From a virus, in UHGV virus genome UHGV-0125336: 37,419 nt of DNA, one strand, 5' to 3'. Made by a program: the position numbers and the translations under genes. Shown in pieces: positions 1,245-35,749 of the stretch (its first letter is position 1; every line of letters begins with the position of its first letter). The notes under the pieces were generated by a model. That model did no database searches. It was not told the origin of the DNA and was given only the letters and a program-made list of their open reading frames with translations.

Positions 1245-1340
1245 TACGAAGCCCTCCAATGAACCGCTCTACAATTTCTCCAGCCTCTTTCCAGCAATAA
1301 TCAGACCAGACAAAAAGCAGGTCTAACCAGTTTTCTGGCC

Positions 1341-4358: not shown

Positions 4359-4480
4359 GAAACCAGAACATGCACACACAAAAAAACCGCTTGCCATGCC
4401 GCAATCAGTCAGGTTACATTTCCGCTGCACCTCACAAAACGGGTGCCGGGTTTCGCAGCCTGCTGACTACACAAGCGCAC

Positions 4481-4502
4481 AACCGCGCCAGCGGTTTTTT
4501 TG
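4481..4502 (+). terminator. Candidate intrinsic terminator inside the early operon
   Basis: AACCGC-GCCA-GCGGTT hairpin followed by a T7 run, within the 320-bp non-coding gap 4359..4680. Confidence 0.4.
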
Positions 4503-4680
4503 TGCGTACTGTATTGCCACGTTTTTTTCGCGTCAGAATTATGGCGGGGCGTACGGGGCCGACTTCGGTCGGGCCGGGTTCTTGTGTAGCCGGTACTGCG
4601 AACCTCGTACGTCTCGCCACCCACAGTTTCGCAGCTCTGGATGGTGAGTTTTCACAACTTACTACACAAGGGGCCACACC

Positions 4681-14305: not shown

Positions 14306-14459
14306 TGCTCCCCCTGAGTAATTACAGGAAGATTACCCGCGCGCGAAACTGTTCTCCTTAACCCCCTGTTCTGGCCGTTTTCTTACAACAAAAGCCCTTT
14401 GTATCAGCCTGTTACGCTTTGCCATCATGACTGAAGAACCAGTCAGAGGGGCAAAAACT

Positions 14460-15296
14460 ATGGCTAATGAAAAAAAGACATCCCGCAAAAAGTTTCGCGT
14501 GGCTGTCTCCGGTGTAACGGCAGACGGGCGCGAAATCAACGGCGACATGCTGAAAGCTGCCGCCACCAGTTATAACCCGTCCGTTTATGGTGCACGTGTG
14601 AATATTGAGCACATCCTGTCACCACTCCCCGGTAGCGAGTTTTCCGCTATGGGCGATGTTGTGGGGTTGAGCACCGAAGACATAACCGATGGCCCGCTGG
14701 CAGGCCGCACGGCACTGTATGCCGAAATTGAGCCGACCGCTCGCATGATGTCCCTGCTTAACGATGGTAAAAAAATTTACTCCAGTATTGAGCTGGAACC
14801 ACAGTCAACCATCACGGGAGGCCCTTACCTGCGCGGGCTGGCAATGACCGACACCCCTGCCAGCCTGGGCACGGAACGTCTGGCCTTTGCGGCACAACAA
14901 CGTATGCAACTGATGACATTCAACTGTCAGCAGGGAGACGTGGCGATGTTTACCGCCGCTATGGAGTCAGAACTTATCGAACTCACCGAACAACGTCAGG
15001 AAGAAGGCACCCAGTGGTTTAACCGCGTTATGGGGATTATTGGCCGTGGCCGCAAAGCGGATGACGCCAGTTTCTCCCGTATTCAGGAAGCGGTGGAAGG
15101 TGTCGCAACGTCACAGGCCGACATTATCGACCGTTTTAATGTGCTGGAAACCCGCCATCAGCAGGACAGCCAGAAAATCACTTTACTGACCACAGAGCTG
15201 GCAGCACTGAAGGAAAAACTGCGCACGCAGGACGGCGATCCGCAGAACCGGTTCACCGCAACAGGTGCAGCCTCCGACCAGCTGGCTGACTTCTGA
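14460..15296 (+). CDS. O: Capsid scaffolding protein, P2 gpO-like
   Basis: From ATG 14460 (MANEKKTSRKKFRVAVSGVTADGREI...) it resembles recalled gpO (MAKKVSKFFRIGVEGDTCDGRVI...), including TDxPASLGTE..L.F.AQQ. The ORF-track start at 14427 is likely too far upstream. Confidence 0.85.
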   Translation: MANEKKTSRKKFRVAVSGVTADGREINGDMLKAAATSYNPSVYGARVNIEHILSPLPGSEFSAMGDVVGLSTEDITDGPLAGRTALYAEIEPTARMMSLLNDGKKIYSSIELEPQSTITGGPYLRGLAMTDTPASLGTERLAFAAQQRMQLMTFNCQQGDVAMFTAAMESELIELTEQRQEEGTQWFNRVMGIIGRGRKADDASFSRIQEAVEGVATSQADIIDRFNVLETRHQQDSQKITLLTTELAALKEKLRTQDGDPQNRFTATGAASDQLADF

Positions 15297-18940: not shown

Positions 18941-19344
18941 AGTTATGGACTTCTCTGGGCGTCGCTTTTCTTCTGATTGCCGCATGGGGAACATCCATGC
19001 GTCTGTCGTGGTCGCTGGGCCGGGAGAACGCCAGAAACGAAGCGCAGGCCAGCACCCTGAAAAGTACCGCCGACACCCTGAATATCATCAGCGCCGGGGT
19101 ACAGGATATGCAGCAGGTGCTGGCGCAACTCCGCGTGGAAAATCAGCAACGCAATCAGGACGGAGAGGTAAGACGTGAACAGCTACGCAACGATATTGCA
19201 AAAGATGAATGCGCCCACGCTTTGCCTGACGCTCGTTTTACTGACAGGCTGCGCAGGCACGCAGAACGCGCCACTGCCAGCGCCGTCAGTCCGGCTTATA
19301 CCGCAGACGCTGACCATACCGGTAACGCCTCCCCCCTTCCCTGA
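18937..19344 (+). CDS. lysB: Inner-membrane spanin component, LysB/Rz-like
   Basis: N-terminal TM segment followed by a coiled-coil-rich region. Overlaps the endolysin stop. Confidence 0.6.
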   Translation: MKLWTSLGVAFLLIAAWGTSMRLSWSLGRENARNEAQASTLKSTADTLNIISAGVQDMQQVLAQLRVENQQRNQDGEVRREQLRNDIAKDECAHALPDARFTDRLRRHAERATASAVSPAYTADADHTGNASPLP

Positions 19345-22934: not shown

Positions 22935-25781
22935 ATGAAATATGGTGCCATTATCACAGCGGCTGGCGCTGCCAGGCTTGCTGCAGCCACAACAGCAACA
23001 GGCCAGAAGCTGAACATCACTCACATGGCCGTGGGAGATGGTAATGGAAATCTCCCGGAACCATCGGCCTCACAGACCGCCCTGAACAATGAAGTCTGGC
23101 GCGGGACGCTGAATAAAATTACACAGAACAGCAAAGCGCCAAATCAGGTGATTGCGGAACTGGTTATTCCTCCGGAAGTTGGCGGCTTCTGGATGCGGGA
23201 GCTGGGGTTGTATGACGACAGCGGAACCCTGATTGCCGTCGCCAATATGGCAGAAAGCTACAAGCCGTTACTCGCCGAAGGTTCGGGGCGCTCAATGGTC
23301 TGCCGCATGTTCATCATCATCAGCGATATGAACGCGGTGAATCTGTCAGTGGACAGCAGCGTCATTGCCGCAACACAGGAATATGTTAACGAAGCCATCT
23401 CCGGCCTGCACCGCGCCATCATTGATGATGTGGTTCTTCAGCATAAAGTTGTCCACGATATTGACTACACCGGGATTTTTGACGGCGCGGATAAGATGAG
23501 CCAGGGGTTCTGTATCTGTGATACGCCGCAGGGAACCCGAATGTTTCTGCATCAGCCTGTATCGGGTGGCGTAAGGATTGTTGAAACGACATTTAACCCT
23601 GACGGAGAAAACGAAAACCCGACGGTCATTTCGTTTTCTCCCGTTTTCGCTGATATTGGTCACCAGAGTATCGGGGCCGTATGTGAAGACGGTCGCGTGA
23701 TGCTGTATACCCCGACCGCTGACGGCAAGGGTGTGAATATCATCAACTGGAATGGGGCTGACACCAGTCTGACAGATGTCACCCGTACGGAGATTTTCAC
23801 CTCTGACTTTTTTACCGGGGATGAAATTATAACGGTGGCATTGTCGGTAGACGGAAGCCTGTTGATTGTTCAGTCAAGTAATGAAGCCGTCCATCTTCAT
23901 TACAACAGGGATGACCGCCGCACAGTTTATGTTTTCGATCGCGCTTCTCTGACGTTTAAACACCGGATTTATCTGTCCACCCAGTCAATGGTGTCGCAGG
24001 CATTTCAGGGGATGGCCAGCGATGGTCATTATCTGTTTGCTTATTACGGTTATACAGGCGTATTTCTGACTCACCGCATTGTTGTATATAACCTGTCAAC
24101 GGGCGAAGTTGTCAGACAGTTCAATGTGGATGGCGTTCGTGCCAGGTATGGCCGCCAGAAAATGCTGGGGAATGCAGAGCTGGGGTATCCCGTTTTGCAG
24201 GAAGCCGAAGGGCTGGCTCTTCATAACGGAAAACTGTATCTGCTCGATATGGATTTCTGGTGTCAGACAGCCGATGTGGTTTCTTTTGAGGGGGCATACT
24301 TTGCAGCACGTGCAACAAATTTTTCTGGCCGTTCCCCGGTGAATCCATCTTACTGGACGCCTACAGCATATGGAACGGCGGCTGCAACGAAATATGATGC
24401 CACGAAGTCTTATACGTGTGGCGTGGCGACAAAACGCAGCAAAGCTGTGGTTTCCGTGGAGGCTTACGACGGCACAGGCTATCTGGTGGACTCCGGCGTG
24501 GCGTTTCCTGACAGCCATGCCAGCCTTTTTCTGAGTCCCAATGCTGTAAATATAGCCCTGTCACCCAATGAAGACTTCCAGGTGGCAGCCTATGAGCAGA
24601 ATCTGCGCTCGCATCGCCCGTTATTTGAGGTCAGAAAGGAGGCTCCGGATACAGACACTTCTGCTGCTGTTTTTCGTTTGTACGGGGATGCGTTCCGAAC
24701 CGGAGAATACACAGGCCGCTTCGTTCAGTGGAAACACCGACTGAACGCCGTGCACGATTGTCTGGAAATACGCGCTGACGTGGATTTGTTGAGCGGTGGC
24801 GGAATTAACCTTTACTCAATGAACGATACTCAGTCGGCGGGACGCACAAGGCTTTATTGCACCGATGGCAGTGAGACCTGGTCTGTATTATTGAGTCCGG
24901 TCTCGCCGTCATTTCATCCCGACCAGGACAAGGCAATGAATCTGGGGTCATCGCCAAATCGCTGGAATGTGGCATACCTGCAGGGCGTGAATATTAAATC
25001 GGATGACGAAACCCAGAAGCGCATGGCCATCAGCACCACGCTGAAGGCGGGAGCTTTCCAGGTATCAACAGCCGGGAATCTGGGTATTTATGACGATTCT
25101 GCTGACGCTTATGTAATTGCAGCCCGTAGTGACGGCACTGCATTCATGCAGATGGATACAGATATTAACGGTGCATTCCGGCCATCGGTTAACAATACCA
25201 GCGACCTGGGTGCGCCCAACAAAGCGTTCCGGAGCGTGTATCTCTGCAACTCGCCGACCGTTGTGTCGGATGCGACGTTAAAGGATACACCGCGCGATGC
25301 GACAACAGCCGAAAACGCGGCATTTGCAGAAATAGCACGACTTCCGGGCGTGTGGCGCTGGTTACAGAGAATTGAGGAGGAGGGCGAGGACGCGCGTCTG
25401 CACGCCGGGCCGACAGTCCAGGCCGCGATAGCGGTGATGGAGAAACACGGTCTGGACTGGCGGAAATACAGCGCATTTTGTCTGGATTCGTGGGAAGCGG
25501 AGGAGGCACAGTACGAAGATATGCCGGAAGAGTATGAAGATATTCCGGTTCAGCCTGCGATTTATTCGGATGAAGGGGAGCTGTTGAGCGGGACAACCCG
25601 TGTGCTTACCCGACAGGCGGAAAGGGTTCTTGTTCGCCCTGCAACCGAAGCAGGAAGCCGTTATCGCTTCCGGAAAGAGGAGCTTCTCTGGTGGTGTCTG
25701 CGTGCTGTTGTCAGCCAGGTGGATGCGCTGACAGAGAGCATCAGCGCACTTACCCGCCGTGTTGATTTACTGGAGGAATAA
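22935..25781 (+). CDS. H: Tail fibre, P2 gpH-like N-terminus with divergent receptor-binding region and C-terminal intramolecular-chaperone-like domain
   Basis: N-terminal 150 aa conserved gpH anchor. C-terminal 170 aa begin at SDATLKD (25263-25286) and show the auto-cleaving chaperone pattern (..VWRW.., ..GPTVQAAIAVMEKHG.., terminal coiled coil). Confidence 0.85.
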   Translation: MKYGAIITAAGAARLAAATTATGQKLNITHMAVGDGNGNLPEPSASQTALNNEVWRGTLNKITQNSKAPNQVIAELVIPPEVGGFWMRELGLYDDSGTLIAVANMAESYKPLLAEGSGRSMVCRMFIIISDMNAVNLSVDSSVIAATQEYVNEAISGLHRAIIDDVVLQHKVVHDIDYTGIFDGADKMSQGFCICDTPQGTRMFLHQPVSGGVRIVETTFNPDGENENPTVISFSPVFADIGHQSIGAVCEDGRVMLYTPTADGKGVNIINWNGADTSLTDVTRTEIFTSDFFTGDEIITVALSVDGSLLIVQSSNEAVHLHYNRDDRRTVYVFDRASLTFKHRIYLSTQSMVSQAFQGMASDGHYLFAYYGYTGVFLTHRIVVYNLSTGEVVRQFNVDGVRARYGRQKMLGNAELGYPVLQEAEGLALHNGKLYLLDMDFWCQTADVVSFEGAYFAARATNFSGRSPVNPSYWTPTAYGTAAATKYDATKSYTCGVATKRSKAVVSVEAYDGTGYLVDSGVAFPDSHASLFLSPNAVNIALSPNEDFQVAAYEQNLRSHRPLFEVRKEAPDTDTSAAVFRLYGDAFRTGEYTGRFVQWKHRLNAVHDCLEIRADVDLLSGGGINLYSMNDTQSAGRTRLYCTDGSETWSVLLSPVSPSFHPDQDKAMNLGSSPNRWNVAYLQGVNIKSDDETQKRMAISTTLKAGAFQVSTAGNLGIYDDSADAYVIAARSDGTAFMQMDTDINGAFRPSVNNTSDLGAPNKAFRSVYLCNSPTVVSDATLKDTPRDATTAENAAFAEIARLPGVWRWLQRIEEEGEDARLHAGPTVQAAIAVMEKHGLDWRKYSAFCLDSWEAEEAQYEDMPEEYEDIPVQPAIYSDEGELLSGTTRVLTRQAERVLVRPATEAGSRYRFRKEELLWWCLRAVVSQVDALTESISALTRRVDLLEE

Positions 25782-25783
25782 TT

Positions 25784-26068
25784 ATGGACTTAACCCCGGT
25801 GTTCCATGCACTTTGTGCGGTGGCCACTCAGTTTCTGGTAGGTCTTTTTACCGGAAACTGGGCTTACGGAGCGATAGCCGGTTGTACGTTCTTCATTGCG
25901 CGTGAACACACCCAGGCAGAATATCGCTGGATTGAAATGTTCGGGCATGGCAGGCGTATGAATATGCCGTGGTGGGGCGGTTTTGACCCACGCGCGTGGG
26001 ATATGGCAAGTCTGATGGATTTTGCAGTGCCGGTGGTGGCATGTCTGCTGGTCTGGCTGGTCGTATGA
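25784..26068 (+). CDS. Small two-TM membrane protein in the position normally held by gpG
   Basis: 94-aa ORF starting 2 nt after the H stop. Two hydrophobic segments. Not gpG-like. Confidence 0.5.
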   Translation: MDLTPVFHALCAVATQFLVGLFTGNWAYGAIAGCTFFIAREHTQAEYRWIEMFGHGRRMNMPWWGGFDPRAWDMASLMDFAVPVVACLLVWLVV

Positions 26069-26080
26069 CGTAGCAGGAAA

Positions 26081-26105
26081 CAGGGGGATTTGCCCCTGTT
26101 TTTTT
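26081..26105 (+). terminator. Intrinsic terminator of the H operon
   Basis: CAGGGG-GATTTG-CCCCTG hairpin followed by a T7 run. Confidence 0.55.
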
Positions 26106-26222
26106 GTTCAGAATGCAGCCTTCACCATTCGTCTCTAATCGTATTCAGTAATTCGCCCGCAGAAACAAACTAAAATTCATCCCCCACATCACGCCACTGA
26201 AAGCAGACGGTAAACTCCAGAT
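26106..26222 (-). pseudogene. Degenerate remnant of a gpU 3' end
   Basis: About 75-80% identical by eye to 26888..27010 (the intact U 3' end) in the same orientation. Reading frame preserved at the stop (RMVKAAF* versus KMATAAF*), but an in-frame TAG lies upstream. Confidence 0.6.
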
Positions 26223-26525
26223 TTTCAAACCAGCGTCAGAAGTATTTAAATGGCACCAGATGTAATATGCAGGCGATTAATATGGTGTGCTTAAAGATCA
26301 TAAAAGCGGGCAACATTAAAACTCCGGGCTGTGTAAATTACCGCCACTCATAATCAGAGATGAAAACAGAATTAAACTGGCGGCGTGGATTGTATACATA
26401 AAATAAGTTCAGTTGTTGACTTTCACTTCCGTGAGTTGATGAAGGTTATTACAATACACCGGTATGATCTCTCCTCCTTAAAAGGGAGGACTTTTCAGAA
26501 CGCAGAAATTATTTATAATCCCGTA

Positions 26526-26576
26526 GTGTTCTACACATGCCAACATTCTTTGCCCGCCCCGTGCGGGCTTTTTTTT
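26526..26576 (+). ncRNA. Candidate small RNA 1 (about 50 nt)
   Basis: Weak promoter (TTTTCA-N16-TATAAT, -10 at 26514-26519) upstream of a strong terminator (GCCCGC-CCCGT-GCGGGC plus T8, 26552-26576). No convincing ORF. Confidence 0.25.
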
Positions 26577-26666
26577 GCCATAAAGACACAGTAACAAACA
26601 GAATTGTAATCAGAGCAATAAAATCATGAAAAACATTTTCATTGATGACGATAACAATTAAAAATA

Positions 26667-26696
26667 TTGCATTAAATGATTCCCGTTCAATATAAT
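26667..26696 (+). promoter_or_regulatory. Sigma70-like promoter (TTGCAT-N18-TATAAT)
   Basis: -35 TTGCAT at 26667-26672 and -10 TATAAT at 26691-26696. Drives the short transcript ending at the 26740-26763 terminator. Confidence 0.45.
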
Positions 26697-26703
26697 CCCC
26701 CTG

Positions 26704-26763
26704 CAACCAGAAAAATTAAATCTTCACACAATGCATGTTGCCCTCTTTATGAGGGCTTTTTTA
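26704..26763 (+). ncRNA. Candidate small RNA 2 (about 60 nt)
   Basis: Between the TTGCAT/TATAAT promoter and the terminator GCCCTC-TTTAT-GAGGGC plus T6. No ORF. Shares a CACA-ATGC-TTGCCC motif with candidate 1. Confidence 0.35.
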
Positions 26764-26854
26764 TTTCCCGAATATCACCATTGCCATCATCGGGCGATTT
26801 ATATATAGTCAGAATGTATTGACAACATTTTGCTTCTTTTCCATGAAGGCCATA

Positions 26855-26886
26855 AGGGAGTGCTTTTTACACTCCCTCTTTTTTTA
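26855..26886 (+). terminator. Intrinsic terminator abutting the U stop codon
   Basis: AGGGAGTG-CTTTTTA-CACTCCCT followed by a T8 run. Plus-strand oriented. Confidence 0.6.
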
Positions 26887-26887
26887 T

Positions 26888-27352
26888 TCAGAATGCCGCT
26901 GTCGCCATTTTGTCTTTAAGCGTGTTCAGTAATTCGCCCGCAGAAGCAGACTGAAACCTCTCCCTCATATCCTCATCACACCGCTGAAAGCTGATGGAGA
27001 ACTCAATCTTTTTTGCCTTTCCGTAACGATCCAGTTCGGAGCGGGTGGTCTGTAATCCCGTAATCACGTACATTCCGTAAATCTGCCCCGTGCCATCAAT
27101 CAGCGGCCAGGGACATCCTGTGTAGGCCTGGGTGTTCAGTAGTGTCAGCGACACCTCACCGCCGGTAATTTCCGGGTACAGCAAACCGGACAGCGTGATC
27201 TGGTCATCACCTGCGCCGATATACTGCCAGGCCGCAGAGCGGTTAATGCGCTCATTTTTCACATGTCGCCATGTTTTGCTCTGCTGGATCTGCTGATGTG
27301 GCAGCGTGCGCAGCTCAAAAACAAACATGCCGTAGATCATCATCATGGTCAT
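26888..27352 (-). CDS. U: Tail protein, P2 gpU-like
   Basis: ...ITLSGLLYPEITGGEVSL...IDGTG... parallels recalled gpU (...VTLSGTLYPELTGGRLSL...IEGTG...). Confidence 0.85.
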   Translation of the reverse strand: MTMMMIYGMFVFELRTLPHQQIQQSKTWRHVKNERINRSAAWQYIGAGDDQITLSGLLYPEITGGEVSLTLLNTQAYTGCPWPLIDGTGQIYGMYVITGLQTTRSELDRYGKAKKIEFSISFQRCDEDMRERFQSASAGELLNTLKDKMATAAF

Positions 27353-27358
27353 GACTCC

Positions 27359-30199
27359 TCAATCTTTATCGTAAAAACTGCCACGCCCGACACGGGCGCG
27401 CCGTTCCATTTCTGCCCTGACCATTTCACCGACCAGTTTCGCCAGTTCGCGGGGATTCTGCGTAACAACGTTATGCAGATGAACATGAATTTCACCACCA
27501 AATCCGGAGGCAACAGGCTCCCGGTTACGGGAAGTTACAGGAACTGATGCCACTGGAGATCGTATGGCCTCCGCCACCGGGCGGGAGCTGGCCGCAACAA
27601 CAGGGACCAGCGCCGGAGGCAGCGGAGCCGGGACCACGGGTGTGATATTAATTGCGGGGGGCTTACTGACCTGCGCAATCTTCCGCTCCTGCCACTCCCC
27701 ACGAACGGCAAGTGCGCGGGGCAGGTTCTTAAAGACAATATCACCGGGGCCAATGCGTTTTTTCGTCTCATCAACCAGCTTACCTGTGTTATCAGCAATT
27801 TTGCTGAGTCTGCGCAGCGTACCGGTATTGCTGTCTGTGAGTGGTTTATTGTCTTTGGGTTTATCACCTCCCGTGCCATTGCCATTTTCCACAGGCTTCG
27901 GCGGATTGATTTTCGCCAGGTCCCCCTGAAGCAAGGCAACCTTGTCCTGAAGAATGGCCGCACGCTGTGCGTCTTCGATTTTCTTGCGCGCCCTTTCCGC
28001 TTCATCCGGAAGGACGCCAAGTTTTTCAAGTATCCACGCCAGCGTATCCAGCAACATTTTTGCAGGCGTCAGAACAAGCTGTAGCGCGCCACCAAGAGCG
28101 TTACCGAATATCTCGCCAGCACTGGTACATTTATCCAGCGTTTCCTTGCTGGACTCCATCGGTGACAGCAGCGATTTAAACCAGTTAAACACCTGGCTGA
28201 TCCCGCTTCCGATTGCGTCAAAAACAGGACCAAACCGTTCAAAGGTTTCACGCAACGGGTTCAGCCTTTCCATAATCCCGCTGAACACCCCGGCAAAAAA
28301 TGCCCTGATGGGATCCCAGTATTTCCAGATAAGAACGGCAGCTCCGGCAAGCGCAGCCACGATAAGACCAACCGGACTGAACAGCGCCCCGATAGCGCCT
28401 CCCAGCAAAGAAACGGAACCCGTCACCATTCCCCACAGCGCAGGCAACACCCTGACGACATTCATTGACCGGGTAAGAATGTCAAAACCAAGACGCAGGG
28501 TGGCCAGCTTCCCGTAAAGCACCCCAATAACCAGCGACAACGAGCCAATCGTTGCAGTCATTGCCAGCAACGCACCGCCTGCTATCAGTAGCTGGCGCGT
28601 CAGTACCGGATGGGCCTGCGCCAGCGAGGTGATTTTTTCAAGCACCCGCGTGAGCCACTGCGTGACAGAACGCAGCGGACCGTCAACCAGATCACTGATG
28701 CGAATACGAAGACCTTCCCATGCGCTGTCGAGATTTTTCAGGTCCCCATCAAGATTATCGGCCATTACTTTTGCAACGCGATCGGCCTCTCCCCTTGCCC
28801 CCTGCAATTCTCTGGTCAGTTTTTGCAGCTCTCCTGAACCAGCCGCCGCAACAAGCGTCTGCAAACCAACGAACGCCTCTTCTCCGGCGATGTCCTTGAA
28901 GAAGGAGACCTGGTCCACCTGTCCGTATTTTTGTGTCGCCTTATAGAGATCAAGCAGCACATCCTCCATCGGGCGCATTTTGCCTCTGGCGTCAGCAACT
29001 GACACCCCCAGCTCTTTCAGCGCATCAGCCGCAGCTTTTGGCGGTGATGCAAGGCGGGACAGACTTGCGCGCATGGCCGTACCAGCATCGCTTCCACGAA
29101 GACCATTATTGGCAAGCATCCCGGCCATGGCTGCCGCTTCTTCAAGACTGATACCAAGTTTTGCGGCAACCGGACCGGTATACTTCATGGTTTCGCCCAG
29201 CGCGCGTAAATCAGTATTGGTCCGGGTGAATGCCGCTGTCAGCGTATCGCCAACCCGGTCCATTTGATCGGCTGTCAGGTTGAACTGTGTGAGGATATTG
29301 GAGCCTATATCCGCCGTCTCGCCGAGTTCGACGCCACCTGCCAGCGCCATATTAAGAACACCGGGCAATGCGGCCTGAATGGCCTGCGGAGTAAAACCAG
29401 CCATTGCCAGAAAGCTCTGCCCACTGGCGGCATCACTCGCAGTAAACTGTGTTTCAGAACCAAGTTTTAACGCCTGCTCACGCAGCGCCTTAAACTGCGG
29501 GCTGTTTTTGTCGATTCGCGTCAGTGCCTGAACGCGGGACATCTCTTTGCCGAACCCGATCGCAGGCTGCAAAAAACGCCCGGAAGCATAGCCGCCAGCC
29601 GCTGCAGCACCAATTGCCAGCGCACCACCTGTTTTCAGTTTTCCCGCGGTTTCCTGCGCGCGCGAATACCGCTCACGCGCCCGCGTTACACGCGCAAGCG
29701 CCTGCCGTTCGCGTTCAAGCTGGTTGTTGTACTGTTCGGTGCGTCTGATGGCCTGCTGGATTGTGTTATCGCTGCCTGTCAGGGAAATGCCGTGGCGTTT
29801 CAGCTCTCCGCCAAGTTCCCGCATTTTCTGAATTTCCCGTGTGCGCGATTCATTCAGGCGTTCAAGCCGGGTGCTTAACTGCTGCATCAGCTTTTGTTGT
29901 TTTTCGCTGAGCACTGTACCCGTGCGTTGTAACTGATTAAGGGCGTTAAGCTGGCGTCGTGCTTTCACGATGCCAGCATCCGCTTTACTGACAGCGTCGC
30001 GGGCGCGCTCAAATGATCGCGCCTGACGCTCGAGATTTTTGATCGCCCCCTGCGTTCGCTGGATGGAGTCACCAAACTGCCCCATCAGGCGGCGGGCGTT
30101 TTCGGCAGGCCGGGTCAGCCTGTCAACGGCGCTGAAAGCGACCCGGATATCAAGAGTCTTCATTGTCTGCATTCCCGCTGCGAAGTGCCGCCCGCTCAC
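27359..30199 (-). CDS. T: Tail tape-measure protein, P2 gpT-like
   Basis: 946-aa ORF, helix-rich with Ala/Gly-rich hydrophobic central segments, between E/E' and U. Confidence 0.85.
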   Translation of the reverse strand: MSGRHFAAGMQTMKTLDIRVAFSAVDRLTRPAENARRLMGQFGDSIQRTQGAIKNLERQARSFERARDAVSKADAGIVKARRQLNALNQLQRTGTVLSEKQQKLMQQLSTRLERLNESRTREIQKMRELGGELKRHGISLTGSDNTIQQAIRRTEQYNNQLERERQALARVTRARERYSRAQETAGKLKTGGALAIGAAAAGGYASGRFLQPAIGFGKEMSRVQALTRIDKNSPQFKALREQALKLGSETQFTASDAASGQSFLAMAGFTPQAIQAALPGVLNMALAGGVELGETADIGSNILTQFNLTADQMDRVGDTLTAAFTRTNTDLRALGETMKYTGPVAAKLGISLEEAAAMAGMLANNGLRGSDAGTAMRASLSRLASPPKAAADALKELGVSVADARGKMRPMEDVLLDLYKATQKYGQVDQVSFFKDIAGEEAFVGLQTLVAAAGSGELQKLTRELQGARGEADRVAKVMADNLDGDLKNLDSAWEGLRIRISDLVDGPLRSVTQWLTRVLEKITSLAQAHPVLTRQLLIAGGALLAMTATIGSLSLVIGVLYGKLATLRLGFDILTRSMNVVRVLPALWGMVTGSVSLLGGAIGALFSPVGLIVAALAGAAVLIWKYWDPIRAFFAGVFSGIMERLNPLRETFERFGPVFDAIGSGISQVFNWFKSLLSPMESSKETLDKCTSAGEIFGNALGGALQLVLTPAKMLLDTLAWILEKLGVLPDEAERARKKIEDAQRAAILQDKVALLQGDLAKINPPKPVENGNGTGGDKPKDNKPLTDSNTGTLRRLSKIADNTGKLVDETKKRIGPGDIVFKNLPRALAVRGEWQERKIAQVSKPPAINITPVVPAPLPPALVPVVAASSRPVAEAIRSPVASVPVTSRNREPVASGFGGEIHVHLHNVVTQNPRELAKLVGEMVRAEMERRARVGRGSFYDKD

Positions 30200-30368
30200 G
30201 CCAGCTAACCACTTCGCCGGGCGTCATCATGAAGATTTCGGCGGGCGACCAGTTAAAAATGGCGGCAATATCCGCCACAAAGTCTTCTATGTGCTCAAAG
30301 CACACAACCGTGATCAGGCTTCCGTCGCCTGTTCGTTCTTCCCGCCAGAGTCCGCACCGCTCAAAAAA
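30150..30368 (-). CDS. E' extension, reached by programmed -1 frameshift from E (E+E' product)
   Basis: Minus-strand heptamer TTTTTTG (plus coordinates 30362-30368) lies in-frame in E as AAT-TTT-TTG. The -1 frame continues as ERCGLWREER... to a stop at 30150, as in P2 E/E'. Confidence 0.65.
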   Translation of the reverse strand, partial: FFERCGLWREERTGDGSLITVVCFEHIEDFVADIAAIFNWSPAEIFMMTPGEVVSWRERAALRSGNADNEDS

Positions 30369-30679
30369 TTTACGGCAACCACACATAACTGAATAAAGTC
30401 ACGGGATGCCATTTTTTTGATCGTCACTTCATCCAGTCGCGGTGATGTCACGCGTGACAGCAGCGTAAACATGGATTCCGCTTTCAGATTCAGCACATCA
30501 GACAGCGACAAATCTCGCAGAGATCCAGCCTGCTCAATAGCCCCGGTGATCTCCACATACGTGATTTTTTCGCCGCCTCGCTCAATTGGTTGGGTAAGTT
30601 TTACGCCACGCTCACTGGTTTCTTTCACAGTGTCAGTAACTACCGTGTTTTCGGTATCGATGTTTTTCGTCTCTTTCAT
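30314..30679 (-). CDS. E: Tail assembly chaperone, P2 gpE-like
   Basis: 121-aa ORF upstream of T. Contains the slippery site used for E+E'. Confidence 0.8.
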   Translation of the reverse strand: MKETKNIDTENTVVTDTVKETSERGVKLTQPIERGGEKITYVEITGAIEQAGSLRDLSLSDVLNLKAESMFTLLSRVTSPRLDEVTIKKMASRDFIQLCVVAVNFLSGADSGGKNEQATEA

Positions 30680-30733
30680 CAGGAAACTCCTTTCAGTCAG
30701 AGGCGACGCACTGCGCCGCCTGCATATTACTTA

Positions 30734-31246
30734 TCAGCCAAGCCCGAGCGCGGAACGGATGCGATCGGGCACAATGTCCTTGCCGTCCTTCCGGTAAATG
30801 AAGTTCAGCAGGTCAATCTCCCACAACGGGCGATCGTTAACACTCAGCTTGTAGTAGGTGTTTTTAATGGCGTAAGTGTGTGATGTGGCTTCGCCCTGTT
30901 TGGCTTCCCCCATATCAATTTCCGTCACACGTCCGCGCATTTCGACTTCATACAGGTCGCTTTCTGCATCGGTGTAGTATTCACCCGCAAAACGCAGCAG
31001 CGTGCCGTCAATCGTGCCGCCATACTTAAGGAACAGCTCACGAACTGCGCCCCCCATGACAAAGCTCGCATCAAGCGCGGAGTCGTCCAGACCGAGATCA
31101 ATACTTACCGCACCCATCATGCCACCACCCCGGTAGCTGTCGGTTTTGCGCGTCAGCTTAGGCAGAGTGACGGACGTCACCTTACCCACTTCGTTTTCAC
31201 CATCCACAAACAGCGTAAAAAAGCGAAGATGTTTTGGTACAGCCAT
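30734..31246 (-). CDS. FII: Tail tube protein, P2 gpFII-like
   Basis: 170-aa ORF immediately downstream of the sheath gene on the same strand. Confidence 0.85.
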   Translation of the reverse strand: MAVPKHLRFFTLFVDGENEVGKVTSVTLPKLTRKTDSYRGGGMMGAVSIDLGLDDSALDASFVMGGAVRELFLKYGGTIDGTLLRFAGEYYTDAESDLYEVEMRGRVTEIDMGEAKQGEATSHTYAIKNTYYKLSVNDRPLWEIDLLNFIYRKDGKDIVPDRIRSALGLG

Positions 31247-32430
31247 CAGGCACCTCCCAGCACCGCAAATGCGGGACCAAAGAATTCATCAGTAAACGAC
31301 TGGTAAAGCTCCATGTCTTCCAGCGGGGGAACAGGCGTATATTTGTAGCGAATACGCACGCGCCCCTGACGTAAATTCGTGGTGCCGTTATCCACCACGT
31401 CATACCAGCACGACGCCCCAATCAGTTTCCCGGCAGTAACCAGTGAATCCAGTTTTGCCCTGATGGCACTGATAACATCTTTCACGTTCGCAGGCGTCAG
31501 TGGACTGTCGATGGTTTCAAACTGCGCTTCCGCAATTGAATCAGCCAGCACCTGTGCGGTTCGGGTATACACCTCAAAGATGTAGGCGTTCGTTTCCGGT
31601 GTGCGGTTGCCCCAGAAGCGGAACCCGTTGCGACGAATAATGGTCGTGATTTCTTTGTTGTTGAGGCTGTTGGCATCACTGTCTTCGGCCTGCAACGACC
31701 AGAACACATGCCTGGACATCCCCAGCACATTTTTAACCGGAACGTTGGACAGCGATTTGTGCCAGCCCTGCTCATGGTCAATGTACGCACGAAGGCCGCA
31801 CGCATAGGCAGGCGCGGGGAACGTTTCGTTTTTGCCACTTTTCGGGTTGTAGGCGATGAAGTCCGGCCATAAGAGCATCACCTCACGTTCGTTGAATTTC
31901 TGGCGGTAGGTAATCGCCTCAGCCATCGTGTTACAGCCGTGACATGAGGCATACACAAACGCGCGCAGTTTACCCGCAATCACGCACAGGGATTTTGTTA
32001 CCGCCTCCGTGTCCAGCTCCGGCGCGGCCAGAATACGCGGACGGTATCCGATGCTTTCATCCTGCTCTGCAACAAGCAGCGCATACATCCCCGTATAGCT
32101 GCCGTCAGATTCAGAACCACCGATAACCAGTTGATCCTGCGTTTTTCCGTCTTCTTCTTTGTGTTCAGCCACGCGAACGACGATCACCTTTGTGCTCACC
32201 TGGTCTGCGATGGCCTTAAGCGCACGATAAAGCGTCCCCGTTGTTCCGCATTTTCCCAGCACGTCATTGACGCGGGTCAGCAGTGTGGGCTTGTTCAGCG
32301 GGAACAGCTCCGCATCCGCATCATCCGCCGTTGCCACGATACCGATAACACTGGAATCAACATCGTTAATCGCTGTTACCAGGTCGGTATTTTCCGTAAC
32401 ACGGGCACCATGAAAACGAGTTTCACTCAT
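31246..32430 (-). CDS. FI: Tail sheath protein, P2 gpFI-like
   Basis: ...DADAELFPLNKP...RAF.Y......EA..YRQ.F..RE.M..WPDF.A....EQGWHK(T/S)LSNV...FWGNRT...YTRTAQV...YTPVPPLE... matches recalled gpFI. Confidence 0.9.
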   Translation of the reverse strand: MSETRFHGARVTENTDLVTAINDVDSSVIGIVATADDADAELFPLNKPTLLTRVNDVLGKCGTTGTLYRALKAIADQVSTKVIVVRVAEHKEEDGKTQDQLVIGGSESDGSYTGMYALLVAEQDESIGYRPRILAAPELDTEAVTKSLCVIAGKLRAFVYASCHGCNTMAEAITYRQKFNEREVMLLWPDFIAYNPKSGKNETFPAPAYACGLRAYIDHEQGWHKSLSNVPVKNVLGMSRHVFWSLQAEDSDANSLNNKEITTIIRRNGFRFWGNRTPETNAYIFEVYTRTAQVLADSIAEAQFETIDSPLTPANVKDVISAIRAKLDSLVTAGKLIGASCWYDVVDNGTTNLRQGRVRIRYKYTPVPPLEDMELYQSFTDEFFGPAFAVLGGA

Positions 32431-32586
32431 AGCTTCAGCCCCTTGTATCCGTTAAATGATTCGGCAACAATCATCACCCACCACGCGCGTAATCTCACCC
32501 CTGCGCCGTTCTCCCGCCACGGCGACAACAAAAAGCAGTAACCCCCTACGCACGCACATGCGACCATGCCGCACAGGGAGGGAACA

Positions 32587-33697
32587 GATGACCGATACCA
32601 CCATGCAATTGCTCAGTCAGAGCACAGACCCCGTGAAAATGCCGGATTTTGATATTCTCGCGGAGGGGGAAACACTGTCCGGCGTGGCAGAGCGCCTGAT
32701 GAGCCTGTCACTGACCGACAACCGGGGATTTGAAGCGGACCAGCTCACCATCACGCTGGATGATGCGGATGGTCAGTTGCAGCTACCGCCACGGGGCGCG
32801 CGCCTGACGGTTCTCATTGGCTGGAAAGGAGAACCGCTGACAGAAAAAGGCACTTACATTGTTGATGAAATCGCACACGAAGGACCGCCGGACAGGCTGA
32901 CTGTTTCAGCCAGAAGCGCAGATTTTCGGGATGAATTTAACGTTAAACGTGAGGTGTCCTGGCATGATGTGACCGTTGAGCGCGTGGTATCCGCCATCGC
33001 TCATCGGTACGGTCTGAAACCACAAATCAGCGAAATGCTGATGGATATTGAAATCGACCACGCCGACCAGACCGAAGAAAGCGACATGTCCTTCCTTACG
33101 CGCATGGCGGAAATGCTGGGCGCAATCACTACGGTAAAAAGCGGTAATCTGTTATTCATCATGCCAGGCGGTGGCGTGAACGCACAAGGCCAGCCGTTGC
33201 CCTCGTTCGCCATCACGCGCAGCAGTGGCGATCGCCATCAGTTCCGCATTGCTGACCGCGAAGCGTATACGGGGGTACGCGCTTACTGGCTTGATCTTAA
33301 TTACGGGAAAAAGAAAAAAGTCAGCGTGAAACGCCGCAAACCGCCAAAACCCAAAAAGGAGAAAAGCAGCAGCCGTGAAGGTGATTATATGGAAGGCGCG
33401 GAAGGCAATGTGTTTGTGTTACGCAAGGCTTATCAGAACGAGCAGGCAGCAAGACGCGCAGCGGCGGCAAAGTGGCAGCAGCTACAACGCGGAGCCGCAT
33501 CATTTTCCATCACGCTGGCGCGTGGACGTGCAGAACTCTACCCCGAAATGCATGGCACGGTAACAGGATTTAAAAGCGAGATTGATAATCAGGACTGGAT
33601 TATTGCGAAAGCCGAGCACACCATTGATAACAGCGGCTTTACCACGCAGCTTGAGCTTGAAGCAAAAATCCCGGAATGGATAGCAGAAACAGAGTGA
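32587..33697 (+). CDS. D: Tail/late protein, P2 gpD-like
   Basis: ...LAEGETLSGVAERLMSLSLTDNRG.EADQL.I.L.D.DG.L.LP.RGARLTVLIGW.GE.LT... matches recalled gpD. Start at 32587 after an AGGGAGG RBS. On the opposite strand to FI. Confidence 0.85.
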
Positions 33698-33739
33698 GCA
33701 ACTTAGAATAGCGGCAGCACCACGTTAAGGGAGGTCGCT

Positions 33740-34000
33740 ATGTTCCGTTGTCCGCTTTGTGGCGCATCTGCCCGTATCCGCACCAGTCGTTCGGAAAATG
33801 ATTCAAACACCGTACGGAAAAAATATTACCAGTGTAACAACCTGGAATGCGGCATAAGTTTCTCAACACTGGAAGCTTTCCATAAATTCACATCGAAACA
33901 CGCCCCCGGCGTTCACTCTTCAGAAGGTATCCCGTGGCATGAGTTGCCAGCTTCACACAGGGGAAACAATCAGATGAGTTTGCCTTTACCTCAGAATTAA
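33740..34000 (+). CDS. ogr: Ogr/Delta-family zinc-finger late-gene activator
   Basis: MFRCPLCG...YYQCNNLEC: a CxxC...CxxxxC zinc finger at the N-terminus as in P2 Ogr (MFHCPLC...YHQCQNVNC as recalled). Longer C-terminal tail than P2 Ogr. Confidence 0.75.
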   Translation: MFRCPLCGASARIRTSRSENDSNTVRKKYYQCNNLECGISFSTLEAFHKFTSKHAPGVHSSEGIPWHELPASHRGNNQMSLPLPQN

Positions 34001-34190
34001 CAGGCAGAATTGCCGGAGTAACAAAAAAGCGATAGATTACGCGCGGGTGCCTTTCGGCTGATGGTCGGAGGGAATACCCGAAGGCCAGATGTGGAAAGGC
34101 CCCGGAAAACATTTCTGTTTAACCGAGGCCCTAACCGTCTAACCTTAGCAAGTGATAGGTTAGCGCCTCCCTGAAAAAGGAGCAAGCGCT

Positions 34191-34331
34191 ATGTCGCAAA
34201 AATCGCTTACGGCCATCACGTTCTGCGTGACGGCAATCCTCATCATCTGGATGCTGCACGGTTCGCTGTGCGAAATACGGATGAGCTTCTGGGGAGCGGA
34301 GTTTGCGGCGTTCTTACAGTGTAAGCAGTAA
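34191..34331 (+). CDS. hok: Hok/Gef-family type I toxin (46 aa)
   Basis: MSQKSLTAITFCVTAILIIWMLHGSLCEIRMSFWGAEFAAFLQCKQ: one TM helix, then the SLCEI motif and an AAFL.CK C-terminus, closest to HokA as recalled. SD AAGGAG (34177-34182) sits in a hairpin. A GNRA-loop hairpin follows the stop (34341-34362). Confidence 0.7.
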   Translation: MSQKSLTAITFCVTAILIIWMLHGSLCEIRMSFWGAEFAAFLQCKQ

Positions 34332-34393
34332 GGAAACCGCGACGGGGGAGCAATCCCCCGTCAATCGGTTGCCAGGGTAAGGTCGATAAGGCA

Positions 34394-34404
34394 CCCTATC
34401 TCAC
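34394..34404. repeat. Left target-site duplication (CCCTATCTCAC)
   Basis: Perfect 11-bp direct repeat of 35890..35900, immediately outside the left inverted repeat. Confidence 0.6.
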
Positions 34405-34545
34405 CAATGCCGTTCAGTTAGTTAAGGAATTGAGGTTCGATAGCCCGAACCTCGCGCAGAGGCAATATGACCGAAAGCCTGATTCCTTAATGCCCAAGAT
34501 GAGTCTCTATTCATAAAAGCGCTTAACTACTCGACATTGGCGGTG
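34405..34545. repeat. Left terminal inverted repeat (about 140 bp)
   Basis: Contains nested hairpins (TTAAGGAAT...ATTCCTTAA and GAGGTTCG-ATAGCC-CGAACCTC). Inverse match to 35750..35889. Confidence 0.6.
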
Positions 34546-34740
34546 TATCCCCCGCATTGTCTGAATGCCGCCTCTTACCTTTCGCGGTCAACTGACGACT
34601 TCTAGTTCTAGAACGCCTTGATTTTTTGTACTTGTACATTGAAAAATAACCATAAATTGTTAGCCTGTGCAGTAGACTCAGTGGCGGTAACTGGTCAGCA
34701 TGAAGTGTAAAGTGAATAACGAAGCTCTAAAATTATAGGG

Positions 34741-35574
34741 ATGGTCATGAATAATAAGCTAAAGGTAATTGAGTTAAATAGTCTTGATCTGTTTCGTAAA
34801 GAATTACTAACTACTATAAAGCCAGAGAAAGTAGAGAAATTACTTAGATGGTATCTTCAATCATATGGCGGTGTTAATTTCAAGTTCGGTTATGACAGAC
34901 CAATTTTTAGAGCGCGAAAGTGCCCAAATGAATGCGGATATAATAACATCAGTGAGATATATCCCCCTCCACCAGAAAAATGTAAAATAGGCCGAATGAA
35001 TGATGATGGACAAGCTATCTTCTATGGCGCTTATAGTATCGGAACAGCTTTAGCCGAAATTAATGCAAAAGAAGGGGATTATGTTCACATAGCTCACTTT
35101 AAGATGCCGGAAAATTCAGAGTCTGGAATGCGATGTTTTGCTATCGGTGAGGTCTTTAATGTGTATCACGGTGTAAATACAATTTCAATTGAAGTGTTTA
35201 ATGAAATTCGCGACATCATTAGCAGAATTGGTAAGGACGACATCCGAGCTTTGCTATCATATTTGTATATGGATGCCCTTTCTGCTGAGTTGCTTAATAG
35301 TATCAATGCCCATGAGGTAAATTATATTTACTCAAGAATTTTTTGCCGTCTTCTTCTTGATAAATACCCTGATGTTGATGGTCTTATTTATCCTAGCGCT
35401 AAAATAAAAGGGGCCTCAAATATCGCTTTGCGCACAGAAACAGTTAAATCGAGAATGCATTTAGTTGCTAATCTTGTGTTTAAAGTAAATAAAATTTATC
35501 CATATGGAATAGTAGATTTCAGTATAGTAAAACAAGCCAAAGGACATACATCAGATGGGCGCATCGTTTGGTGA
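34741..35574 (+). CDS. RES-domain-like protein (putative NAD+-targeting toxin fold) with an N-terminal extension
   Basis: KIGRMNDDGQAIFYGAYSIGTALAEI fits the RES pattern (G-R-W/M-N..G...Y.A.S...A..E), and DGLIYPSAKIKGASNIAL fits the second conserved block. No adjacent Xre/antitoxin-like ORF. AT-rich. Confidence 0.5.
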   Translation: MVMNNKLKVIELNSLDLFRKELLTTIKPEKVEKLLRWYLQSYGGVNFKFGYDRPIFRARKCPNECGYNNISEIYPPPPEKCKIGRMNDDGQAIFYGAYSIGTALAEINAKEGDYVHIAHFKMPENSESGMRCFAIGEVFNVYHGVNTISIEVFNEIRDIISRIGKDDIRALLSYLYMDALSAELLNSINAHEVNYIYSRIFCRLLLDKYPDVDGLIYPSAKIKGASNIALRTETVKSRMHLVANLVFKVNKIYPYGIVDFSIVKQAKGHTSDGRIVW

Positions 35575-35749
35575 GCCAAACTTTTAGTTAGCTGATTGAA
35601 AAACCGATGCGTCAGTTTGCACTGCATGTGGTGTATGGGAAGCGCGGGCTTGTAGTGCAGGTCATTTCAGAAGAAGCTAACGAGAAAGCTTAGACATACT
35701 GTGACTACTAAACAAGCAGAAAGCCCGTGTTTATGGGGGGCAATCCACA

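What the first reader, a model, noticed from the sequence alone, without database searches (positions are those of the whole stretch)
26888..32586. Tail block FI-FII-E/E'-T-U is on the opposite strand to H and D, unlike canonical P2
In P2, FI through D form one operon co-directional with V-W-J-I-H-G. Here FI to U run leftward, convergent with H, while D and ogr run rightward from a 156-bp divergent region (32431-32586). D would therefore need its own promoter. I found no TGT-N12-ACA Ogr-type dyad in that region.
Basis: partly seen in the sequence, partly recalled or inferred. Interest (0 to 1): 0.45.

Follow-up and report, generated by a model that had tools for sequence, protein, structure and literature searches.

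The report
P88-type inverted tail gene block
The tail sheath-to-U gene block of this P2-like E. coli prophage really does point the opposite way from P2, but that is the normal gene order of a large, already catalogued group of P2 relatives (phage P88 and at least four other genera), so it is ordinary.

Summary
FI, FII, E/E', T and U (26888-32430) lie on the minus strand. H lies on the plus strand upstream, and D (true start 32588) and ogr lie on the plus strand downstream. P2 has all of them co-directional. It is not unusual. The same order is annotated in phage P88 and four other Peduoviridae genera (Xuanwuvirus, Novemvirus, Reginaelenavirus, Senquatrovirus, Reipivirus). It is also found in every usable locus from more than 25 Enterobacterales species whose gpD is at least 64% identical. 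The FI/D junction is present in 1358 of 5426 complete E. coli genomes. The missing "TGT-N12-ACA" is a consequence of using a strict pattern. The 157-bp FI/D spacer carries GTTCT-N12-ACAAC (32508-32529), the same dyad as this phage's P/O spacer. That dyad is flanked symmetrically, 43.5 bp each side, by -10-like elements facing FI and D. Dyad, spacing and both cores are conserved in 33 divergent relatives, and the dyad variant matches the P/O dyad within each genome. Most likely one Ogr-type site drives a divergent PF/PD late promoter pair, as P2's PP/PO does. That part is inferred, not measured.

The parts
26888..27352 (-). gpU tail protein, last gene of the leftward tail operon
   Evidence: Pfam Phage_P2_GpU 9.5e-40. 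PHROG 76.
27359..30199 (-). gpT tape measure (longest ORF; probable ATG start at 30163 or 30172)
   Evidence: PHROG 28 and Pfam PhageMin_Tail. 95% aa identity to P88 T. Start codons checked.
30150..30679 (-). gpE (30314-30679) and the E+E' -1 frameshift product. Slippery TTTTTTG at 30368-30362; E' stop at 30150.
   Evidence: PHROG 103. Slippery site and frameshifted reading. P88 annotates the E' piece separately.
30734..31246 (-). gpFII tail tube
   Evidence: Pfam Phage_tube 7.5e-47.
31246..32430 (-). gpFI tail sheath, first gene of the leftward operon
   Evidence: PHROG 23 at 2e-125 and Pfam sheath domains.
32431..32587 (.). 157-bp divergent FI/D control region
   Evidence: Sequence. Alignment of 33 distinct homologous spacers.
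32508..32529 (.). Predicted Ogr-type activator dyad GTTCT-N12-ACAAC, centre 32518.5
   Evidence: One of only two exact matches in the window; the other is in the P/O spacer. T5 and ACAA are invariant in 33 relatives. In phiT5282H and 3LV2017 the pattern hits only the P/O and FI/D spacers genome-wide.
32470..32475 (-). Predicted PF -10 (GATGAT on the minus strand), 43.5 bp from the dyad centre. Predicted start near 32463.
   Evidence: The aligned position reads GATTAT/GAATAT/GAACAT in relatives with gap-free spacing. The dyad-to-FI distance is 88.5 bp here and 82.5 bp at P2 pF.
32559..32567 (+). Predicted PD extended -10 (TG-c-GACCAT), 43.5 bp from the dyad centre. Predicted start near 32572-32576.
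   Evidence: Relatives carry CGCGCGC-(A/G)TG-(A/G)AA-NNAT at the same position. It resembles the O-side core TGCCATCAT of this and related genomes.
32588..33697 (+). gpD (baseplate hub / late control D)
   Evidence: Pfam Phage_GPD and PHROG 52. 96-99% identical to Xuanwuvirus D and 48% to P2 D.
33740..34000 (+). ogr-type zinc-finger late activator (CX2CX24CX4C)
   Evidence: Pfam Ogr_Delta 57.8 bits against a cutoff of 26.3. Translation.
14368..14389 (.). Matching dyad in the P/O spacer (comparison site). The P-side -10 is TAATCT at 14335->14330 and the O-side -10 is CATCAT at 14423-14428.
   Evidence: The P2 record annotates one activator site for both pP and pO.
26093..26225 (-). Decayed duplicate of the 3' end of U plus its terminator, left of the intact U
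   Evidence: About 80% identity with indels to 26873-27012.

Best explanation
The window holds a P88-type (genus Xuanwuvirus) P2-like prophage. In this whole clade the segment [PF promoter-FI-FII-E/E'-T-U] is fixed in the opposite orientation to P2, while D and ogr keep the ancestral direction. The most likely origin is one old inversion with two breakpoints. One lay just upstream of the PF activator site. The other lay between U and D.

As a result, D sits about 70 bp from the centre of the dyad that activates PF. I propose that this single Ogr-type dyad (32508-32529) now serves two divergent late promoters. PF runs leftward through FI to U. PD runs rightward through D and reads on into ogr. 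Each has a -10-like element 43.5 bp from the dyad centre. This is the arrangement P2 and this phage use at the divergent P/O promoters.

Shown: gene identities, orientation, breadth of the arrangement, and conservation of the dyad, its spacing and both core elements.

Inferred: that the elements are promoters, the transcription starts, Ogr dependence, and the single-inversion history.

Confidence by part: about 0.97 that this is the ordinary, fixed gene order of a described clade; about 0.65 that the shared-dyad PF/PD promoter model is right.
For: 1. Orientation and identity of the genes. P2 reference order.

2. The same order is annotated in P88 and P884B11, phiT5282H/Novemvirus, 3LV2017/Reginaelenavirus, SEN4/Senquatrovirus and ST16-OXA48phi5.4/Reipivirus.

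3. 47 genomic loci with gpD at 64-99% identity were found, from Salmonella, Serratia, Erwinia, Pantoea, Klebsiella, Brenneria and others. Every one with upstream DNA has FI divergent from D.

4. The junction is present in 1358 of 5426 complete E. coli genomes.

5. Cartapus (gpD 53% identical) and P2 (48%) are co-directional, and Cartapus has invertase-FI...U-D. Only FI to U is flipped.

6. The exact pattern GTTST-N12-ACAAC occurs twice in the window, in the P/O and FI/D spacers (0.15 expected).

7. The loosened pattern hits only those two spacers in the whole genomes of phiT5282H and 3LV2017. The left half-site variant is the same at both sites within a genome and differs between genomes: GTTCT, GGTCTGGCC and GTTGTG.

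8. In 33 distinct spacers the dyad, an FI-side GATTAT-like hexamer and a D-side CGCGCGC-TGnNANNAT block keep fixed, nearly gap-free spacing, while the DNA between them is scrambled.

9. The geometry mirrors P2. P2 has one annotated activator site centred 55.5 bp from both the pP and pO starts, and the pF -10 lies 44.5 bp from its dyad centre.

10. Phages with this order are viable: P88 (PMC5285337), phiSM (PMC6456863), SEN4/5 (PMC5261728).
Against: - No transcript data were available, so promoters, start sites and Ogr dependence are predictions.
- The dyad pattern was defined after looking at the two window sites, so the count is partly circular. on other genomes is the independent check.
- The predicted PD start leaves only a 12-16 nt leader.
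- The window's D-side core (GACCAT, CGCACGCAC) is a weaker version of the relatives' consensus.
- The generic sigma-70 scan finds nothing in the spacer. That is expected for activator-dependent promoters but is not positive evidence.
- P2's pV and pO/pP sites do not match the clade pattern within one mismatch.
- Single origin and direction of the inversion rest on identity tiers and outgroup order, not on a phylogeny.
Confidence: 0.75

Rival explanations
1. The block is an actively invertible (flip-flop) segment or an assembly or misorientation artefact. On this reading the orientation seen here is one of two states, or an error.
For: P88-type phages often carry a Gin/Hin-type DNA invertase gene directly next to the 3' end of U. 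P2-type Cartapus has one directly upstream of FI.
Against: - There are no meaningful inverted repeats at the block ends in the window or in P88, where the only long repeats flank the tail-fibre segment.
- The window has no invertase gene.
- All loci from more than 25 species and 1358 complete E. coli genomes show the same junction.
- The spacer is alignable across the clade, so the junction is old and fixed.
Confidence: 0.02
2. D and ogr are transcribed from an Ogr-independent (early or constitutive) rightward promoter. The dyad serves PF only, and the conserved D-side block is something else, for example a binding site for another factor or an upstream element of PF.
For: - ogr must be made before Ogr exists, and no terminator separates D from ogr.
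- The conserved D-side block includes TG plus a -10-like hexamer, which could work without an activator as an extended -10.
Against: - The D-side core lies at the mirror-image distance from the dyad (43.5 bp, matching the FI side). It resembles the O-side and P-side late cores (TGCCATCAT; CGCGCGCGGGTAATCT) of the same genomes.
- A separate -10-like TAGAAT (33704-33709) lies just upstream of ogr. -10-like hexamers (TAGAAT, or CATAAT/TAAAAT) also sit at or just after the D stop in many relatives. This could supply early Ogr as P2's own ogr promoter does.
- D is a structural late protein in P2.
Confidence: 0.2
3. D starts at the upstream in-frame ATG 32456 (413-aa ORF). The spacer would then be only 25 bp, and D would be expressed from a promoter inside FI.
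For: The ORF 32456-33697 is open. Some pipelines call small ORFs in this spacer (P88 gp50; PGAP 'hypothetical protein').
Against: - Family matches begin at residue 43-45 of the long ORF.
- Relatives have a conserved Shine-Dalgarno sequence and ATG at the position of 32588. The upstream DNA aligns with non-triplet indels and promoter-like blocks rather than as coding sequence.
- P88, P884B11, phiT5282H and 3LV2017 are annotated with the short start.
Confidence: 0.03

Closest known systems
Escherichia phage P88 and genus Xuanwuvirus (Peduoviridae)
   Same: 92-97% nucleotide identity in one collinear stretch from inside U (26960) through D and ogr (to 34100), so the FI/D junction and all strands match. 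Same gene order and strands, and same right-end cargo (hok-like, RES, zinc-ribbon genes).
   Different: P88 has a tail fibre, two fibre-assembly genes, an invertible alternative fibre and a DNA invertase between H and U. The window instead has a 948-aa tailspike with a C-terminal chaperone domain, a 94-aa ORF, a U remnant and about 650 bp of AT-rich DNA.
Bacteriophage P2 F operon (pF: FI FII E E' T U D, read-through to ogr)
   Same: Same genes in the same internal order, with the same E/E' TTTTTTG frameshift. The PF-side geometry is the same: TGT half distal, dyad about 83-89 bp from the FI ATG.
   Different: In P2, D is the last gene of the operon and co-directional with V to G. Here D is split off on the other strand. 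Proteins are only 33-48% identical.
P2 divergent pP/pO late promoters sharing one Ogr site
   Same: One dyad lies midway between two divergent late operons, with -10 elements about 44 bp and starts about 55 bp on either side (P2 record). The window's own P/O spacer has the same dyad as its FI/D spacer. PMC3931495 likewise assigns one TGT-N12-ACA site to both PP' and PO' of phage Smp131.
   Different: pP/pO is experimentally mapped in P2. The FI/D pair is only predicted, and I found no paper describing it.
Escherichia phage Cartapus (Elveevirus) and other P2-type relatives
   Same: Nearest tier of gpD homologues outside the clade (53% identity). The neighbours are the same: fibre, invertase, tail block, D, ogr.
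   Different: FI to U are co-directional with D, and U overlaps D.

Membership tests
P88-type Peduoviridae (Xuanwuvirus and allied genera with an inverted FI-U block) | High nucleotide identity to P88-group genomes across the tail block, D and ogr | tested here: met
   92-97% identity over window 26960-34100 to P88, 500465-2, PhiR44_2, P884B11 and Shae_phiSM.
P88-type Peduoviridae (Xuanwuvirus and allied genera with an inverted FI-U block) | Gene order H -> | <- U T E' E FII FI | D -> ogr -> | tested here: met
   Window ORFs compared with the annotated records.
P88-type Peduoviridae (Xuanwuvirus and allied genera with an inverted FI-U block) | Formal ICTV genus or species demarcation by whole-genome identity | not tested
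   Only the tail/D/ogr region and the junction were compared. The fibre module clearly differs from P88.
P2-like phage (Peduoviridae) late gene set | Q, P | O, N, M, L, X, lysis genes, R, S, V, W, J, I, H, FI, FII, E, T, U, D and ogr present, with int, C and the early operon | tested here: met
   The tail genes, H, D and ogr have PHROG or Pfam hits, and gpO is 35% identical to P2 gpO. The other genes were assigned from ORF size and order matching the annotated P88-type prophage of E. coli WAT.
Ogr/Delta-dependent late promoter | Cognate Ogr/Delta zinc-finger activator encoded by the phage | tested here: met
   Ogr_Delta Pfam hit above cutoff. The four cysteines are spaced CX2CX24CX4C, against CX2CX22CX4C quoted for P2 (PMC3931495).
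Ogr/Delta-dependent late promoter | Partial dyad of the TGT-N12-ACA type centred about 55 bp upstream of the start | tested here: inconclusive
   A dyad with 5 of 6 consensus bases is present, conserved and shared with the P/O spacer. Its position relative to the start is inferred from -10-like elements only, because no start site is mapped.
Ogr/Delta-dependent late promoter | Transcription requires Ogr and the alpha subunit of host RNA polymerase | not testable with these tools
   Needs reporter or in vitro transcription assays.
Site-specific invertible segment (Gin/Hin/Cin type) | Inverted-repeat crossover sites at both ends and an adjacent invertase | tested here: not met
   No flanking inverted repeats. 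No invertase gene in the window.

The most novel reading that the evidence does not exclude
An ancient inversion whose breakpoint fell just upstream of the PF activator site turned a unidirectional late promoter into a second bidirectional one. A single Ogr-type dyad would then drive both the FI-U operon and a new D(-ogr) transcript. The dyad co-evolves with the P/O dyad and the phage's own Ogr across at least five genera. I found no paper that describes this.
Probability: 0.6. Interest if true: 0.3.

Novelty: already known. Interest (0 to 1): 0.13.

Why it matters
There is little at stake. The gene order is the standard one for a very common family of E. coli and Enterobacterales prophages, so it should not be flagged as an anomaly in future scans.

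Two small practical points follow:
- Strict TGT-N12-ACA searches miss real P2-family late promoter sites, including P2's own. A clade-specific dyad should be used instead (here GNT(C/G)T-N12-ACAAC).
- The FI/D spacer is a compact, well-conserved candidate for a second bidirectional Ogr-dependent promoter. It could be tested cheaply and would show how an operon survives being split by an inversion.

Tried and rejected
- **Strict TGT-N12-ACA scan of the window.** It gave 10 hits, none in any late spacer, at chance level. It is uninformative, because P2's annotated sites also fail it.
- **Generic sigma-70 scan.** No hit in 32431-32587. This is expected for activator-dependent promoters.
- **Inverted repeats at the block ends.** I looked for them as a sign of site-specific inversion, or of an origin through the neighbouring invertase. 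None were found in the window or in P88.
- **A third, V-type late site.** The one-mismatch hit at 19008-19029 lies inside the spanin-like gene and is within chance expectation. The spacer upstream of R has no dyad. Left open.
- **The E. coli WAT prophage.** It matches the junction 100% but is a different, IS-disrupted relative, so it was not used as the source genome.
- **Klebsiella record CP052639.** It has a broken, rearranged FI and was disregarded.
- **Open-access papers on P88, phiSM, SEN4/5, PP4 and Xuanwuvirus.** I searched them for any mention of the inversion and found none.
- **Rfam.** Nothing in the finding's range.

Full report
**1. What is in the sequence**

The window is a P2-like prophage. 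Reading left to right it has:
- int (240-1259, minus strand) and a C-type repressor
- a rightward early operon with the A replication gene (5356-8178)
- Q and P leftward (11508-14305)
- O through H rightward

The block in question follows.

| Gene | Coordinates | Strand |
|---|---|---|
| U | 26888-27352 | minus |
| T | 27359-30199 | minus |
| E | 30314-30679 | minus |
| FII | 30734-31246 | minus |
| FI | 31246-32430 | minus |
| D | ends 33697 | plus |
| ogr | 33740-34000 | plus |

E carries a TTTTTTG -1 frameshift site at 30368-30362 that opens E', which ends at 30150.

The longest D ORF starts at 32456. Homology, a strong ribosome-binding site (GGGAGGG) and the alignment with relatives all put the real start at ATG 32588. 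The divergent spacer is therefore 32431-32587, which is 157 bp.

The annotated P2 genome has V-W-J-I-H-G and FI-FII-E-E'-T-U-D-ogr all on one strand. D and ogr keep the canonical direction, and only FI to U is flipped.

**2. Is it unusual? No.**

*Named phages.* A megablast of 25000-34100 against deposited phages gives single collinear matches at 92-97% identity running from inside U (26960) to the end of the query just past ogr (34100), so across the FI/D junction. The matches are Escherichia phages P88, 500465-2, PhiR44_2, P884B11, 520873 and Chuche, and Citrobacter phage Shae_phiSM. The P88 and P884B11 records (genus Xuanwuvirus) annotate U, T, E', E, FII and FI on one strand, with D and the Ogr-like regulator on the other.

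The same order is annotated in four further ICTV genera of Peduoviridae:
- Enterobacter phage phiT5282H, Novemvirus
- Klebsiella phage 3LV2017, Reginaelenavirus
- Salmonella phage SEN4, Senquatrovirus
- Klebsiella phage ST16-OXA48phi5.4, Reipivirus

*Bacterial genomes.* A scan of one genome per bacterial species with gpD returned 47 loci with 64-99% identical gpD. They come from Salmonella, Trabulsiella, Symbiopectobacterium, Edwardsiella, Serratia, Kluyvera, Erwinia, Enterobacter, Citrobacter, Mixta, Pantoea, Kosakonia, Pectobacterium, Brenneria, Klebsiella, Raoultella, Yokenella, Rouxiella and others. In every locus that retains upstream DNA, FI lies immediately upstream of D on the opposite strand and ogr follows D.

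*E. coli.* The 851-bp junction probe (32100-32950) is found in full length in 1358 of 5426 complete E. coli genomes.

*Outside the clade.* The next tier of gpD homologues has the co-directional order. These are Escherichia phage Cartapus (Elveevirus, 53% identity) and P2 (48%). Cartapus reads invertase-FI-FII-E-T-U-D-ogr, whereas P88 reads invertase-U...FI-D-ogr.

The arrangement is therefore the fixed state of a deep, widespread and taxonomically described sublineage.

*Viability and literature.* Phages with this order are viable: P88 (PMC5285337), phiSM (PMC6456863), SEN4/5 (PMC5261728) and the Serratia prophage PP4 (PMC9826266). None of these open-access papers comments on the inversion.

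**3. It is not a switch or an artefact**

- No significant inverted repeats flank the block in the window.
- In P88 the only long inverted repeats bound the tail-fibre segment next to the invertase.
- The window has no invertase.
- The FI/D spacer is alignable across the whole clade, so the junction is ancient.

**4. How D is probably expressed**

It misses the activator sites annotated in the P2 record as well, which read GTTGT-N12-CCAAC at pF and GTTGT-N12-CCATC at pO/pP.

*The dyad.* The FI/D spacer contains GTTCT-N12-ACAAC at 32508-32529. On the FI strand this reads GTTGT-N12-AGAAC, a 5-of-6 match with the TGT half distal to FI, as at P2 pF. The same motif sits in the P/O spacer at 14368-14389. 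These are the only two exact matches in 37 kb (0.15 expected). That pattern was defined from these two sites, so the count is partly circular.

*Independent test on other genomes.* I scanned whole genomes of other genera with the loosened pattern GNT(C/G)T-N12-ACAA(C/T).
- In phiT5282H and 3LV2017 it hits only the P/O and FI/D spacers.
- In SEN4 it hits FI/D, and P/O misses by one base.
- The variable left half is the same at the two sites within a genome and differs between genomes. The window has GTTCT at both sites, phiT5282H has GGTCTGGCC at both, and 3LV2017 has GTTGTG...CACAAC at both.

This is what is expected if one phage-specific activator reads both sites.

*Conservation of geometry.* I aligned 33 distinct FI/D spacers.
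- The dyad is conserved, with T5 and ACAA invariant.
- On the FI side a -10-like hexamer is conserved (GATTAT, GAATAT or GAACAT; GATGAT at 32475->32470 in the window).
- On the D side a block CGCGCGC-(A/G)TG-(A/G)AA-NNAT is conserved. In the window this is TG-c-GACCAT at 32559-32567.
- The sequence between these elements is scrambled, but the spacing is almost gap-free.
- Both -10-like elements begin 43.5 bp from the dyad centre (32518.5).

*Comparison with known late promoters.*
- In the window's P/O spacer the P-side TAATCT lies 43.5 bp from the centre and the O-side TG-c-CATCAT lies 44.5 bp from it.
- At P2 pF the -10 lies 44.5 bp from the dyad centre.
- The single pP/pO site in P2 is centred 55.5 bp from each mapped start.
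- The P-side core CGCGCGCGGGTAATCT and the O-side core TGCCATCAT recur in phiT5282H and 3LV2017, and they resemble the D-side block.

*Model.* I infer a bidirectional late promoter pair that shares one Ogr-type site. PF would start near 32463 on the minus strand, and PD near 32572-32576 on the plus strand. PD would have a short leader of 12-16 nt that carries the ribosome-binding site.

*Early supply of Ogr.* No terminator separates D from ogr, so PD would also give late read-through into ogr, as pF does in P2. A -10-like TAGAAT lies at 33704-33709. Comparable -10-like hexamers (TAGAAT, or CATAAT/TAAAAT) sit at or just after the D stop in many relatives. These could provide the early, Ogr-independent supply.

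All of this is prediction. No transcript data were available.

**5. History (inferred)**

P2, Cartapus and more distant contractile-tail systems (the last from general knowledge) have sheath through D co-directional, so the P88-type order is probably derived. The likely event is one inversion with breakpoints just upstream of the PF dyad and between U and D. An Ogr-type dyad already works in both directions at P/O. The inversion would therefore have left D beside a usable activator site, needing only a -10 at the right distance. I did not build a phylogeny to confirm a single event.

**6. Verdict**

D does need its own promoter.
- The claim of oddity is refuted. The arrangement is already present in named, classified phages and in a quarter of complete E. 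coli genomes.
- The only mildly new element is the predicted shared-dyad PF/PD promoter.
- Interest is low.

Noticed in passing
window 26093-26225 (compare 26873-27012): A decayed second copy of the 3' end of U together with its adjacent terminator hairpin. It is about 80% identical, with frame-breaking indels. It lies directly after the 94-aa ORF, which suggests the tailspike module was imported from another phage with the same inverted order.
   Followed up: partly
window 22935-26068: The usual H fibre, G chaperones, alternative fibre and DNA invertase of P88 are replaced. In their place is a 948-aa tailspike (P2-type N-terminal collar domain plus a C-terminal endosialidase-chaperone domain) and a 94-aa ORF. 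The ORF's DNA is about 93% identical to an ORF in many lambda-like phages. This exact variant is in 58 complete E. coli genomes, including ST131 strains.
   Followed up: partly
window 26226-26873: About 650 bp of AT-rich (about 41% GC) apparently non-coding DNA between the U remnant and U. It has several terminator-like hairpins and sigma-70-like promoters on both strands. There was no Rfam hit. Function unknown.
   Followed up: no
window 14427-14460: The longest gpO ORF starts at 14427. Alignment with P2 gpO and a ribosome-binding site (AGAGGGG) favour ATG 14460. The earlier start would lie upstream of the predicted pO transcription start.
   Followed up: partly
window 19008-19029: A one-mismatch copy of the late dyad (GTGGT-N12-AGAAC on the plus strand; its first nine bases on the minus strand are identical to the FI/D site). 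It lies inside the DUF2570 spanin-like gene, upstream of R-S-V. It could be a V-type late promoter or chance.
   Followed up: no
window 4427-4624: Rfam hits above threshold for isrK (4427-4501) and C4 antisense RNA (4537-4624), in tandem in the early region.
   Followed up: no
window 34191-35574: Cargo downstream of ogr: a hok/gef-like 47-aa ORF (34191-34331) and a RES-domain protein (34741-35574). The same cargo is seen in P884B11 and E. coli WAT.
   Followed up: no
window 33740-34000: The Ogr homologue has its cysteines spaced CX2CX24CX4C. This is two residues more between the cysteine pairs than the CX2CX22CX4C quoted for P2 Ogr.
   Followed up: no
loci L005 and L046: Contigs labelled Vagococcus sp. 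and Planococcaceae (Firmicutes) carry gpD that is 98-99% identical to the E. coli phage protein. This is probably contamination or mis-binning in those assemblies.
   Followed up: no
L057 (E. coli WAT) 34844-35697; L001 (P88) 14454-14585: Automatic annotation around the FI/D spacer is inconsistent. D is called from an internal start in WAT, and small 'hypothetical protein' ORFs are called across the spacer in P88 and many E. coli genomes.
   Followed up: no
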